NCBI GenBank assembly: GCA_020137815.1
Contig: CM035360.1
Coordinates: forward strand, 5,332,001-5,396,000
DNA from: Hormiphora californensis
Taxonomy: Eukaryota > Animalia > Ctenophora
Direction: 5' to 3'
DNA length: 64,000 bases
Positions 10,101-18,000 of this stretch are shown here, in pieces (the stretch's first letter is position 1; each line of letters starts with the position of its first letter). A program made the translations under genes and the position numbers. The notes under the pieces are model-generated. The model was not told the origin of the DNA. It saw only the letters and a program-made list of their open reading frames with translations, and made no database searches.

Positions 10101-13100
10101 AAGCTCCGGTACCCCAAACTGTCGAGTGTGAATGCCAGTTCTAAACTGAGGAAGAGGAGACCGTCAGTTCTCCTACCGGACCTTTGGAATGCCCTCCCCC
10201 TCGATCTGAGGTCGTTGACCACTGTGGAATCGTTTAAGACCCGTCTCAAGACAAGACTGTTCGTGGAATCCTTTGGGGCTGACTAGTTGTGTCTTTCCTC
10301 TTTCCGGATTTCCCCTATCGCTATCCTATCACTCGCTGTACTGTCTATCAGGTAAGACGTGTGTTTGTACTGTGTGTCCCTCGTGACAAGTTTTTCTAGC
10401 ACATCTTTTTGGGTTTGAAGCACGAGTGTCTGAGTGTGTAATACTATTTTTATTCAGTGTTCAGTTTCCGCTTTTTCCTGGGCGATGTCTGTGTTGAGGG
10501 TGGTTCAGAGATTTATCTGAACCTTTTTTGATCTGATAAAGTTTTTTGGAGAGGTGTAAAGGTTGTAGAGGATATTTTTTGAAGCTATATTTTTTGTCTT
10601 CTTACCATTTATGTCTGTTATGAATCCGATTGTATTTCTTCCATCTCATGAGAGCAGGTTAATTTGGTTTTTACCACCGTTTTTGAATCTAATTTTGGTT
10701 GAGTGTGTGAGTAAACTGCTCTGATTATCCCTCAGTGGCAGTATTAGCTATGCTATGCTGTCCCTGGGGGATCTGGGCAGGATACAAGTCTAGATATTAT
10801 TATTATTATTATTATTATGTACAGCTTCTTGTTTAGTATCCCGGGCATTCCGCTATATAAGTGAGCATGATGACATTTCTAATATGGTGTGGTGAACTAA
10901 CATGGCTTCCTCGATGCATTATCTTGTAACTACCGTTATATAATCGATACTGGGTGTTGTCTGCTCACTCTCAACTATAACCTGGAATCAATATGTTTCT
11001 CTATCTCTCTCTATCCCTCTCTCTCTCGCTCTCTCTCTCTCTCTCTCTCTCTCTCTGATTCTCTTTCTCTCTCTCACTCTATCCCTCTCTCTATCTCTGA
11101 TTCTCTTTCTCTCTCGCTCTATATCTCTCTCTATCTCTGTTACTCTCCTCGCTAAAGTGATAACAGATGGTCAATCTCCCATCCCTATTGTTTTCCCACG
11201 CTAGGAATGCTTTATCTCCATCTGCCTCTTCACCAATCTCTATCCGCCCAGCGCTCTATGATATCTCTCTTTCTCTCTCTATCTCTCCCTCTTTGCTACC
11301 AAAACAATTTGCCGCATGCCAGTAAAAAACGCTTCTCCGTGACAGCCCAGTGTCCAGTGTCCACACCCTAATAATACGAGGGATATCACATGCCATGACC
11401 ATATCAATCAATCAATCAAAACTGCCGCTGGCAGTGGCATGTGCCGCAATAAATTATATAATGTCAAGAAAACCAGCCACACTGGACAAAACTGGGTGGG
11501 GATACAGGGTGGCGCATCAAGGCTAATAACACGAAGACGGGTAAGGTCTTTTGTGTGCGTTTACCATGTTACCCCACCCTGGTACCCACCGTGTCCGAAC
11601 AATGTTTCACACAGGTAATTGTAATAATCATAGATATAAACAAATCTCAAGTCTACCTTTCTCTAACTCATAATACTCACCCGAGCACAAGTACAATCAC
11701 TAACAATCTCTCCTCTCCTCACATGTGATCGCTCACTCTCTGATCTCAACAACGGACCCCCTCCTGATCCTAAAAATCTTTTCTGGCTCTTTCTCTCTCT
11801 TCTTTCTCAACCTAGCAACAAGATCCCTCCTCTCAGTCCGTTCCTCTACAGTTCTGTCTGGAGAAATGTACACTGATTGAAATGTCTCTGAGTCCCTCAG
11901 CTGAGCAGATTTGGCCAAAATAGTCCTAGCTGTCTCCCTGCTCCTCAGTACCACCCGAACAGGACGTATTCGTTCATCACTCCTCCTTCCCAGTCTACTG
12001 ACCTCCGACAAAACAGGTGCCTCGTCCAGATTCTGGAACAACTCTTTCAACTTACTGGTGTCACTACCATTGCCATTCTCAACTAGTCCATAGACCATCA
12101 GATTGGCAGATCGGTCAACTGTGGCGCTGGCCAGGGCAGCACGGATCTTAGTAGGAGCTAGTGCAGATGCACAGCTCTGCTTCATGGTGGTAGCAGCGGT
12201 CTCAAGGACGGACGAATAGCTGCTCATTTCCTCTTTAACAACAGTCTGGACAGCACTAATGCTACTCTCTAGCTGGGAATCCTTCACTGAGATGATCGAG
12301 TCTTTCAGTGCACTAATCTCTTCTTGAAGGGTGATCATTTTCCGGTCACGTTCCAGTAGCTCGTCCTTGACGGTGTCGAGACGGTTTCTGGTGATCTTGA
12401 ACTGTTCCACTAGTTTCTGTACTTTCTCTCTAGACTCGTCAACTGCAGCAGGTCTCGCCTCTTCTAACTCGAACTGTCTCCTGGCTACCTTTGACAAGGG
12501 TCGAGCTCGGAACCAGAGAAGGCCAGCCATGTCTGCAATCAATTTAACCTTCTGATTAGTGTCAAGACTCGAGATGACGCCGGTTGTTATAGTATTAGGG
12601 TCAAACTCACCACCCTCCGTGTTGGAGTCAGGGTAGCCGCCAACTTTTCTCAAAGTAGCTAGGATTGAGGTCTCCAGCCGGATGAAGTCCGCTGTACCTG
12701 CATTATCGCCAGGAACTGAATGTCGCCATGTTGAGAACGCTCGATCGGCCATCTGGAACTGGTATGGGCAGTACAGATGTACTGGGTCAGGAACACTAGC
12801 ATATATATGTCACTTCTCTAATCTGAGTTTCGACCTACCAAAAAAATTATCCTAATTTCGACCTACCAAACCCATTCTGATATCAACCTACTACCACACC
12901 ATCCTCTATTCTACCCTGCTCTAACATATCCTCTACCTCCTCCTCTCTATTCATCTCTCTCTCCCCAGGAACGACTGGCCAGCACGATCAACTGAGCAAG
13001 TGAAGATCAAAGTGAAGAACTGTATTGATGAGTACAAACAGACTATCAAATACAATCAGGAATACAAGACTTGCCCTTATTTCCAGTGAGTATTTACTTG

Positions 13101-16699: not shown

Positions 16700-18000
16700 T
16701 TCAGGTGTCAGGAACTACATTATGTAACAGAGCTAGCACTCTCATTAATGAGCTGGGCCAACCCACATCCGCTGAGCAAACTTTCATCAACTACAACGTA
16801 AAACTATTTATTGAGTTTCAGCAAATGTCTATGTAAGAGCCCAAGAGGGCAGCAAGAAAATGGCAAGCAGCTCTGATAACGAAGAAGAAACGCGGATCTA
16901 CGTGCGGGAAACAGACGTAGAAGAGGATGACATCCAATACTGCCAAGAACAAACCGTGGAGTGGGTTAGCGAGATATTAACGCTAACTGGAGGGTTTGGT
17001 GAAACAGATCCGAGCCAAGTGAAGTATGGACCACACATAGTGGAAGTCTGGGATGATCTGAAAGTTCCCTCCAGGAACAAACTCAGTGCATTGAACAAGT
17101 CAGTGCTTATAGGCCTTGTGGAGAGTGCATGCCGTATTCTCATAGAACAGAGCTTCCCAGTTGGTGAACAGCTGTCACACACGGGATATGAAACCACGAT
17201 GATGAAGCAATATGAGAAGGAGCTCAAAGTTCATAGTAAAGAGCTTATCAAAACCCAAAGGAACCTTGTAGCAGCACAAGAGGAACTACTGAACATTCAG
17301 AGGCAGTTACTAGAGAAGAGGGAGGTTGAGATAACAGCTGTGCAGTCAACAGCACAGCAAGAAATTAAGAGTTTTGCTTCTGTCCTGGAGAAGGAATGTG
17401 CTAGTGCTCTGGCGCCAAAGAAAATCCACTCAGCGATTGTGGCTGCCTCTGAGGACCGTGGGTGTAATATTATCATCCATGGCTTGGAAGAGAGTGCTGA
17501 AATTGAAACTCAAATAAAGTCTCTTTTTACTGAGCTTGAAGAGGCTCCGAAAATGAAATCGGTCGAGCGCTTGGGAAAGCAGTCCTCATCTGCAAGACCT
17601 GTAAAAGTCGTGCTGAGGAGCAGAGACGCTCAAATGTCGATCCTGTCGAAGAAATCTCTGCTGAAAGGGAACGACAAGTTCGGCAAAGTTTTTATTTCTC
17701 CTGATAGAACTTTAGAAGAGCGGAGAGAACGGAAGCAGCTAGTGATTGAACTGAAGGAGAAGGCAAAGCAGTCCCCTGGAACTCACTACATAATCCGTGG
17801 AAGCAGGGTGTTAGAAGCACCAAGGGACTCTTGAACATTTATACTAACTAGCTCTGGACTCTAATTTATTGATCATAGGAGAGTAAAACCGCTTTTGAAA
17901 GCAGGAAGGTAGCCGTAAAGTTTTGTCTTTTTTAAGTGTTATCTTACCAATATGCTATAAAGCGGGATATTAAATGTTTATTGATGATGATGATGATGAG
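16700..18000 (+). mobile_element. ORF1-only LINE-derived element B with (TGA)n tail
   Basis: The ORF1 stop at 17834 is followed by about 145 nt and then TGATGATGATGATGATGA at about 17982-17999; there is no ORF2 before the next host gene. The 5' end is approximate. Confidence 0.7.
16860..17834 (+). CDS. LINE ORF1p-like protein (coiled coil + RRM + CTD), 324 aa
   Basis: Intronless; CASALAPKKI...NIIIHGLEE...RLGK...RPVKVVL...VFISPDRTLEERRERKQLVIELK...IIRGSRV; paralog of 11733-12752. Confidence 0.85.
   Translation: MASSSDNEEETRIYVRETDVEEDDIQYCQEQTVEWVSEILTLTGGFGETDPSQVKYGPHIVEVWDDLKVPSRNKLSALNKSVLIGLVESACRILIEQSFPVGEQLSHTGYETTMMKQYEKELKVHSKELIKTQRNLVAAQEELLNIQRQLLEKREVEITAVQSTAQQEIKSFASVLEKECASALAPKKIHSAIVAASEDRGCNIIIHGLEESAEIETQIKSLFTELEEAPKMKSVERLGKQSSSARPVKVVLRSRDAQMSILSKKSLLKGNDKFGKVFISPDRTLEERRERKQLVIELKEKAKQSPGTHYIIRGSRVLEAPRDS

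What the first reader, a model, noticed from the sequence alone, without database searches (positions are those of the whole stretch)
11404..18000. Two intact, divergent ORF1-only LINE-like units with their own tails and no reverse transcriptase
Seen: two intronless, stop-free ORFs (339 aa on -, 324 aa on +) share a coiled coil, CASALAP.KI and an RRM/CTD (RLG..RP..SPDRT.EER) module, but have unrelated N-termini. Each stop is followed within 150-330 nt by a simple-repeat tail, (TTGA)n with a small stem-loop for A and (TGA)n for B, instead of ORF2. Established: 5' truncation of LINEs removes ORF1 first and keeps the RT end, so ORF1-plus-tail units cannot be ordinary truncations. L1-derived HAL1 elements and domesticated L1TD1 are precedents. 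Inference: a diversified family of non-autonomous, ORF1-encoding CR1/L2-type retroelements mobilised in trans (possibly a bipartite system with RT-only partners), or a domesticated RNA-chaperone family.
Basis: partly seen in the sequence, partly recalled or inferred. Interest (0 to 1): 0.85.

Follow-up and report, generated by a model that had tools for sequence, protein, structure and literature searches.

The report
Comb-jelly half-LINEs with a spliced leader
Two jumping genes that keep only their RNA-packaging protein and have no copying enzyme sit at spots that are empty in other copies of the same chromosome, in what is likely a comb-jelly genome; they likely borrow a partner element's enzyme, and one starts with what is likely the leader that these animals splice onto their messenger RNAs.

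Summary
Unit A (11405-12804, -) and unit B (16779-17996, +) are each one type II LINE ORF1 (best fold match human L1 ORF1p) plus a short 3' UTR and a microsatellite tail. Each is flanked by a target-site duplication (ATAT; TGAGCA), and each has an empty allele in public DNA runs. Relatives at 60-85% identity end in the same tails; dN/dS is about 0.2. Of 110 full-length relatives, 107 lie on contigs under 3 kb; relatives reach Mnemiopsis. ORF1-only LINEs are a known class (HeT-A, HAL1, Ag-Sponge), and leader-tagged transposon copies are reported in flatworms. My searches found no report of a ctenophore case or of the combination. The partner LINE was not found and 'RT-only partners' has no support. 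The scan noted related cases on other DNA (leader-headed dinoflagellate LINEs; an ORF1-only sea-squirt element). New variant of a known kind.

The parts
11405..12804 (-). Unit A: ORF1-only LINE-like insertion, 1.40 kb, slightly 5'-truncated
   Evidence: Empty-site joint 11400->12805 in runs X1 and X5; summed contig depth falls to background outside 11392-12799; an identical-copy contig runs 84 letters beyond 12801 into sequence absent here
11401..11404 (.). Target-site duplication ATAT, copy at A's 3' end
   Evidence: (4 letters fit both sides)
12805..12808 (.). Target-site duplication ATAT, copy at A's 5' end
11733..12752 (-). ORF1 of A, 339 aa, coiled coil-RRM-CTD
   Evidence: dN/dS 0.21 against L003 over 163 codons
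11420..11732 (-). 3' UTR of A; the last 185 nt are 98% identical in L003 (ORF 86%), with a long predicted hairpin and a small terminal stem-loop
   Evidence: fold z -2.3, 3 of 200 shuffles as good
11405..11419 (-). (TTGA)n tail of A
   Evidence: L003 diverges right after the same repeat
16779..17996 (+). Unit B: ORF1-only LINE-like insertion, 1.22 kb
   Evidence: X5 contig record 23 joins 16772 to 17997
16773..16778 (.). Target-site duplication TGAGCA, 5' copy (its last two letters also fit the leader)
17997..18002 (.). Target-site duplication TGAGCA, 3' copy (its first three letters also fit the tail)
16777..16815 (+). Spliced-leader-like head of B (variant; 31 of 41 columns match the Hormiphora-type leader)
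16816..16859 (+). 5' UTR of B, homologous in L002
16860..17834 (+). ORF1 of B, 324 aa, coiled coil-RRM-CTD, fold of L1 ORF1p
   Evidence: dN/dS 0.16 and 0.24
17835..17981 (+). 3' UTR of B; last 100 nt 84% identical in L001 (ORF C-half 75%)
17982..17999 (+). (TGA)n tail of B
9519..10815 (+). Context: 5'-truncated autonomous-type LINE (ORF2 C-terminus, 530-nt 3' UTR, (ATT)n tail, flanked by TATGTA twice); tail unrelated to A or B, so not shown to be a partner

Best explanation
A and B are two separate insertions of ORF1-only LINE families, each flanked by a target-site duplication and absent from other alleles, in what is likely a pleurobrachiid ctenophore; they are likely copied by the reverse transcriptase of an unidentified autonomous LINE, and B was likely copied from a trans-spliced RNA. 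Shown: boundaries, duplications, empty alleles, family-wide tails, purifying selection, L1-ORF1p-like predicted fold, and a leader-like head inside B's duplication. Inferred steps: (1) the element is transcribed by Pol II, and for B the host spliceosome adds a spliced leader, giving a capped mRNA; (2) ORF1p is translated and coats its own RNA as an RNA chaperone, which would explain why the frame stays under selection in a selfish element; (3) the conserved terminal 100-200 nt and the microsatellite recruit a partner's APE-RT ORF2p in trans for target-primed reverse transcription, which gives 4-6-bp duplications, full-length copies (B) and 5'-truncated copies (A, L003). A and B have unrelated tails and likely use different partners.
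For: Empty alleles: A, joint 11400->12805 in 2 of 4 runs laid (X1, X5); B, 16772->17997 in one listed contig of X5. Duplications ATAT and TGAGCA. Same stop-UTR-tail layout in L001 (60% aa to B) and L003. Terminal identity exceeds ORF identity: 182 of 185 against 420 of 489 for A; 84 of 100 against 442 of 589 for B. dN/dS 0.16, 0.24, 0.21. All 9 Foldseek hits at E<=0.001 are human L1 ORF1p chains (best 5.7e-5); top two VIA rows are L1 ORF1p (Z 9.7, rmsd 2.5, 83 aligned). Distant homologues L006 and L007 are followed directly by an APE endonuclease, so the protein is a LINE ORF1. 107 of 110 full-length members of 28 sampled clusters lie on contigs under 3 kb, median 1,405 nt. Leader: L002 carries the last 42 of the 44 nt of the Hormiphora leader (PMC8527503) ahead of the homologous UTR; the window's variant, read in frame, is 13 of 13 residues identical at the start of P0014 (Pleurobrachia bachei-type gene model) and P0039/P0048. 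It has about 20 differently flanked contigs on each side in X4.
Against: L002 does not show B's tail in the 105 nt after its stop, where the contig ends, and has a frameshift. 4 of 164 ORF1 rows lie on 3.3-5.4-kb contigs and could be two-ORF elements. Short contigs may partly reflect assembly breaks. B's empty allele rests on one listed contig. The variant leader is not shown to be a spliced leader: one search for its sequence found no paper, and RNA? contigs of X13 that match it carry 25-174 letters upstream. B's 3' UTR folds no better than shuffles (z 0.37). A shows no leader.
Confidence: 0.87

Rival explanations
1. Both units are recent internal-deletion products of two-ORF LINEs that are still common in this genome, amplified briefly; there is no long-lived ORF1-only lineage.
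For: HAL1 arose several times this way (PMC5753468). 4 of 164 ORF1 rows sit on contigs of 3 kb or more. L002's 3' end differs from B's. A and B have unrelated tails. ORF2 contigs have room for an ORF1.
Against: B and L001 share the stop-to-tail layout at dS about 1.5, so that deletion is old. 107 of 110 full-length ORF1s across 28 clusters lie on short contigs, while the same sources yield LINE contigs of median 4.7 kb. No longer fused form was found (weak by the tool's own note).
Confidence: 0.2
2. A domesticated, host-serving RNA-chaperone gene family (L1TD1-like) whose members are occasionally retroposed as processed copies.
For: Intact frames, dN/dS about 0.2, relatives from Pleurobrachia to Mnemiopsis, and a leader as on host mRNAs.
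Against: Both loci are presence/absence polymorphisms with duplications. They end in family-specific microsatellite tails rather than poly(A), and the tails are better conserved than the ORF. Many divergent copies per run (variant tables).
Confidence: 0.04
3. A two-component system in which ORF1-only and ORF2-only elements complement each other.
For: The sampled ORF1 clade is almost never on long contigs. Trans-splicing could in principle uncouple the two ORFs (inference).
Against: 19 of 31 full-length ORF2 relatives have 1.5 kb or more to spare on their contigs. The one ORF2 family in the window has an unrelated tail. Nothing shows an ORF2-only element.
Confidence: 0.08
4. B's head is not spliced on: B inserted into or beside a genomic leader copy, as SL-gene-targeting retrotransposons do, or the head is an inherited internal promoter that resembles the leader.
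For: Hundreds of leader copies are scattered in ctenophore genomes (718 in Hormiphora, PMC8527503). The variant differs from the published leader at 10 of 41 columns.
Against: The empty allele lacks the leader, which lies inside the duplication, so it is not the target. Two different leader types head homologous UTRs, each far better conserved than the element behind it.
Confidence: 0.12

Closest known systems
ORF1-present non-autonomous LINEs: HeT-A (Jockey), HAL1 (L1), Ag-Sponge (CR1) (PMC5786205, passages read; PMC5753468, passages)
   Same: One ORF1 protein, no reverse transcriptase, LINE 5' and 3' parts kept, mobilised in trans. Ag-Sponge is the closest by clade if A and B are CR1-group.
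   Different: Ctenophore host; many families diverged to 30-40% ORF1 identity; insertions still polymorphic; leader head on B; partner unknown. HeT-A is telomere-specific and HAL1 is L1-derived with a poly(A) tail (both recalled, no call).
Type II ORF1 (coiled coil-RRM-CTD, PDB 2yko) of L1, CR1 and L2 clades (PMC4120745, passages)
   Same: Same domain order and predicted fold.
   Different: No ORF2 downstream; family-specific N-terminal helices with no match; Pfam Transposase_22 not hit.
Leader-bearing transposon copies in flatworms and trans-spliced transposon RNAs in Hydra (PMC12582326, PMC5832876, PMC12220107; passages)
   Same: Spliced leader fused to the 5' end of a retroelement, read as integration of a trans-spliced RNA.
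   Different: Those papers offer it as a possibility, one raising mis-assembly. Here the leader lies inside a duplication with an empty allele, on an ORF1-only family, with two leader types.
Dinoflagellate retrogenes with relict leaders (PMC12014239, passages)
   Same: Retroposed trans-spliced RNA keeps its leader, which can be re-spliced later.
   Different: Host genes rather than a transposon family; re-splicing there leaves tandem relics, whereas B-family heads seen here are single.

Membership tests
ORF1-present non-autonomous LINEs (HeT-A / HAL1 / Ag-Sponge class) | Encodes one protein corresponding to LINE ORF1p | tested here: met
   Fold matches L1 ORF1p for B; A by 39% identity to B; distant homologues precede APE ORF2
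ORF1-present non-autonomous LINEs (HeT-A / HAL1 / Ag-Sponge class) | No ORF2 within the mobile unit | tested here: met
   Duplication-bounded units of 1.40 and 1.22 kb; same layout in L001, L003
ORF1-present non-autonomous LINEs (HeT-A / HAL1 / Ag-Sponge class) | Repeated and mobile as such | tested here: met
   Empty alleles, duplications, many variant contigs
ORF1-present non-autonomous LINEs (HeT-A / HAL1 / Ag-Sponge class) | 3' end shared with an autonomous LINE that supplies ORF2p | tested here: inconclusive
   Only one ORF2 tail was available and it does not match; pattern scans of viral and prokaryotic collections were empty
ORF1-present non-autonomous LINEs (HeT-A / HAL1 / Ag-Sponge class) | Origin by internal deletion of an autonomous counterpart | not testable with these tools
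   No host genome held
HAL1 proper | Derived from the L1 clade, poly(A) tail (tail feature recalled) | tested here: not met
   Tails are (TTGA)n and (TGA)n
CR1 group (CR1, L2, Crack, Daphne) | Type II ORF1 occurs in these clades | tested here: met
   not diagnostic, as L1 and R1 clades have it too
CR1 group (CR1, L2, Crack, Daphne) | Short tandem-repeat 3' tail and short or no duplication (recalled) | tested here: met
CR1 group (CR1, L2, Crack, Daphne) | Placement by RT phylogeny | not testable with these tools
   The units have no RT and the partner is unknown
Domesticated ORF1 gene (L1TD1-like) | Fixed, low-copy, syntenic locus | tested here: not met
   Both loci have empty alleles
Retrocopies of SL trans-spliced RNA | Leader exon at the 5' end, inside the duplication (unit B) | tested here: met
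   published leader exact in L002
Retrocopies of SL trans-spliced RNA | The window's variant is a true SL exon with an SL RNA gene | tested here: inconclusive
   Shares both ends with the published leader and has many flanks; no SL RNA gene or capped reads seen
Retrocopies of SL trans-spliced RNA | Leader at the 5' end of unit A | tested here: inconclusive
   A is 5'-truncated here; the leader pattern occurs once in the window, at B
SL-gene-targeting retrotransposons (SLACS, CZAR, NeSL; names recalled) | Insert into the SL RNA gene, leader belongs to the target | tested here: not met
   B's empty allele has no leader

The most novel reading that the evidence does not exclude
An ancient, ctenophore-wide radiation of ORF1-only retroposons that has persisted without ORF2 from Pleurobrachia to Mnemiopsis. 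At least the B lineage needs no promoter of its own: host read-through RNA is re-trans-spliced at the terminal AG of the relict leader (the only AG in the 39-nt head), which restores an exact, capped 5' end each round. These elements would account for part of the hundreds of scattered leader copies in ctenophore genomes.
Probability: 0.27. Interest if true: 0.76.

Novelty: new variant of a known kind. Interest (0 to 1): 0.55.

Why it matters
Why half-LINEs keep ORF1 is an open question whose examples are mostly old (HAL1) or specialised (HeT-A). Here are intact, still polymorphic families with natural empty alleles and many diverged relatives, so cis-packaging and partner choice can be tested. 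The leader head offers a concrete source for some of the 718 genomic leader copies reported in Hormiphora and 491 in Mnemiopsis (PMC8527503), which affect gene annotation. It also suggests a third way, beside internal promoters and 5' ribozymes, for a LINE to renew its 5' end. Gene catalogues list these ORFs as hypothetical host proteins.

Tried and rejected
No RNA holder was listed for the stretch; X13 covers neither ORF beyond one 59-nt diverged piece; this is no evidence on expression. Summed contig depth was used only to see boundaries, not as a copy number. Pfam gives only weak coiled-coil hits; PDB sequence search gave nothing. An apparent inverted match between A's UTR and its flank is chance (35 of 300 shuffles as good); L003 and the empty site fix the true end. 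Rfam gave only sub-threshold miRNA-type hairpin hits outside the units. Two-sequence fold of B's tail has 1 compensatory pair of 22: uninformative. Longer or fused ORF1 search: none among 7,996 candidates (weak). The 768-aa Mnemiopsis hit is a fusion with CNRIP1 across a simple repeat, not ORF2. Viral and prokaryotic collections: no loci. The quick tree (64 rows) makes A-type a supported group (98) but leaves deep branches and the two ORF2-linked rows unresolved; the careful tree did not finish. The protein atlas gave no answer. Derelle 2010 and Bao and Jurka 2010 were not held, so the leader variant may be described in the former. PMC5890265 passages did not mention a spliced leader; PMC13343379, PMC12859917, PMC11934779 and PMC10294476 passages held nothing relevant.
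Full report
Observation. Both ORFs are as described: 12752-11733 on the minus strand (339 aa, unit A) and 16860-17834 on the plus strand (324 aa, unit B). They align over their C-terminal 206 columns at 39% identity (E 7e-44) and not over their N-termini. (TTGA)4 ends 314 nt behind A's stop and (TGA)6 starts 147 nt behind B's. 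No ORF2 follows; the only ORF2 piece found in the window is a separate fragment at 9513-10283.

Organism. No genome was held. Close homologues carry the source label Pleurobrachia bachei, more distant ones Mnemiopsis leidyi (32% to B), and a homologous locus carries the Hormiphora leader. A pleurobrachiid ctenophore is therefore inferred.

The protein is a LINE ORF1. The model of B (mean pLDDT 77.8, pTM 0.37, 18 sequences) shows N-terminal helices, a 100-residue coiled coil, an RRM and a small CTD. All 9 Foldseek hits at E<=0.001 are human L1 ORF1p chains (best 5.7e-5). The wide search ranks the L1 ORF1p central domain first (Z 9.7, rmsd 2.5, 83 aligned) and the trimer second (Z 9.3), only narrowly above generic RRMs. 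Two of the 7 metagenome loci (L006, L007; 40% and 32%) have the homologous ORF followed directly by an APE endonuclease. This is the type II ORF1 found in L1, CR1, L2 and R1 clades (PMC4120745, passages).

Both units are real insertions. For A, contigs of X1 (depth 29.8, against 50.9 for a flank contig) and X5 join 11400 to 12805 with four letters fitting either side; X8 and X11, of another organism label, do not show this joint. ATAT stands at 11401-11404 and 12805-12808. X1 also holds the filled form, so that sample appears heterozygous. An identical-copy contig goes on for 84 letters past 12801 in sequence not present here, so A is slightly 5'-truncated. For B, a 713-nt contig of X5 covers 16333-16772 and then 17997-18234; TGAGCA stands at 16773-16778 and 17997-18002. 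Only one such contig is listed, in a table that was cut. A lies antisense in an intron of a Myb/SANT-like gene whose exons near 9100-9178 and 12969-13086 are joined in an X13 contig. B lies in sense between that gene's end and the next gene at 18292.

ORF1-only is a family trait. L001 (60% aa to B) runs stop, short UTR, the same terminal 100 nt (84 of 100 identical, against 442 of 589 in the ORF's C-half) and (TGA)n. L003 (A-type, 5'-truncated) matches A in 182 of the last 185 nt, against 420 of 489 in the ORF, and diverges after (TTGA)n. An X1 contig of depth 191.6 spans A's stop into the UTR with 2 differences. dN/dS is 0.16 (B-L001, 322 codons), 0.24 (B-L002, 235 codons) and 0.21 (A-L003, 163 codons). 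Across 28 clusters looked up, out of 12,702 profile hits, 164 listed members with a contig length were tallied, leaving out 3 Mnemiopsis chromosome rows and 1 row without a length. 4 lie on contigs of 3 kb or more; of the 110 full-length ones, 3 do, and the median is 1,405 nt. By contrast 31 of 41 relatives of the window's ORF2 fragment are full length, on contigs of median 4,716 nt with median 1,806 nt to spare, so these sources can assemble long LINEs. Against: L002 does not show B's tail in the 105 nt left after its stop; the few long contigs could be two-ORF elements; assemblies can break at repeats; and whether these contigs are DNA or RNA is unknown.

The leader. B's first 39 nt (16777-16815) match the Hormiphora-type leader at 31 of 41 columns, sharing both ends. 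L002 has the last 42 nt of that published 44-nt leader exactly, ahead of the homologous 5' UTR and behind AT-rich flank. The window's variant, read in frame, occurs 13 of 13 residues identical at the start of 3 of 262 proteins held: P0014 and P0039/P0048, the last two one cluster whose representative is 73% identical to B. Most proteins start at their own ATG, so misses say nothing. In X4, 20 contigs leave the stretch before 16777 and 19 behind 16815, with low agreement; X7 has 25 behind. One X13 contig shows the published leader's 3' end joined to the gene downstream of B, so trans-splicing operates here. The leader lies inside B's duplication and is missing from the empty allele, so it came with the insertion. 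Two leader types on homologous UTRs, better conserved than the elements, point to repeated addition by trans-splicing. That the variant is a true SL exon is inferred, not shown.

Mechanism. Shown: anatomy, mobility, selection, predicted fold. Inferred: Pol II transcription, trans-splicing for B, ORF1p packaging its own RNA, capture of a partner ORF2p through the conserved 3' end, target-primed reverse transcription. Kojima suggests such ORF1 proteins multimerise with the partner's proteins and enhance transposition (PMC5786205). The partner is unknown. The window's young ORF2 fragment (9519-10815, flanked by TATGTA, 91% to a 991-aa APE-RT protein) has an unrelated tail. How a leader-headed copy founds new copies is open. 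Re-splicing at the leader's only AG would replace the head exactly, but GAG is a weak acceptor (recalled) and a stronger TTTCAG lies 6 nt downstream. Unspliced masters with an outron are an equal alternative.

Comparison and novelty. ORF1-present non-autonomous LINEs are a named class with Jockey, L1 and CR1 members, so the core finding is not new in kind. Leader-tagged transposon loci are reported in flatworms (597 loci, PMC12582326; six in PMC5832876) and about 30% of Hydra transposon reads carry a leader (PMC12220107) (passages). Searches (listings; passages read for those cited) found no report of ctenophore ORF1-only LINEs or of this combination. Repbase entries and subscription papers were not searchable, and no supplements were read; PMC5832876 Table S2 may bear on the flatworm cases. 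Earlier scan notes on other genomes describe leader-headed dinoflagellate LINEs and an ORF1-only element in sea-squirt SL genes; these are unchecked leads.

Verdict. Observation confirmed; interpretation partly supported; new variant of a known kind; interest 0.55.

Noticed in passing
window 9519-10815 (+): Young 5'-truncated LINE: 255 stop-free codons of ORF2 C-terminus, 530-nt 3' UTR, (ATT)n tail, TATGTA on both sides; 91% to a full 991-aa APE-RT protein. Same host intron as unit A.
   Followed up: partly
window about 8700-14889 (+): Multi-exon host gene with a weak Myb/SANT-like domain hit (PF13837, E 0.0019, below cut-off); one intron holds both the ORF2 fragment and unit A.
   Followed up: partly
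window 18292 onward (+): Gene starting MSLDVLLEAADVLE, which resembles a Mad/Mnt Sin3-interaction motif (recalled); one X13 contig shows the leader's 3' end spliced to it.
   Followed up: no
window 16181-16344: Very high-copy short element with a perfect 54-nt palindrome (16189-16242) and an 18-nt unit three times; many flanks and internal deletions in all DNA runs. MITE-, SINE- or Helentron-like.
   Followed up: no
window 14139-14231: 93-nt imperfect palindrome (88%) upstream of an exon; depth near background.
   Followed up: no
window 20208-21670: 709-nt perfect inverted repeat with a 45-nt spacer: foldback element or assembly artefact.
   Followed up: no
window 22580-23463 / 24898-25790 and 60667-60894 / 63486-63712: Two further long inverted pairs about 2.7-2.9 kb apart, possibly terminal inverted repeats of DNA transposons.
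   Followed up: no
window 11530-11600, loose ends in X1 and X8: Other sequences share the central hairpin block of A's 3' UTR but have a different 3' end: possible tail exchange or a related family, a lead to the partner.
   Followed up: no
window about 37900-39100 and 46000-48800: Low-complexity stretches with odd run-rich composition that look like poor consensus sequence from noisy reads.
   Followed up: no
L004:165-1103: Distant ORF1 (30% to B) followed by about 500 nt without an ORF of 90 codons on that strand: another possible ORF1-only family.
   Followed up: no
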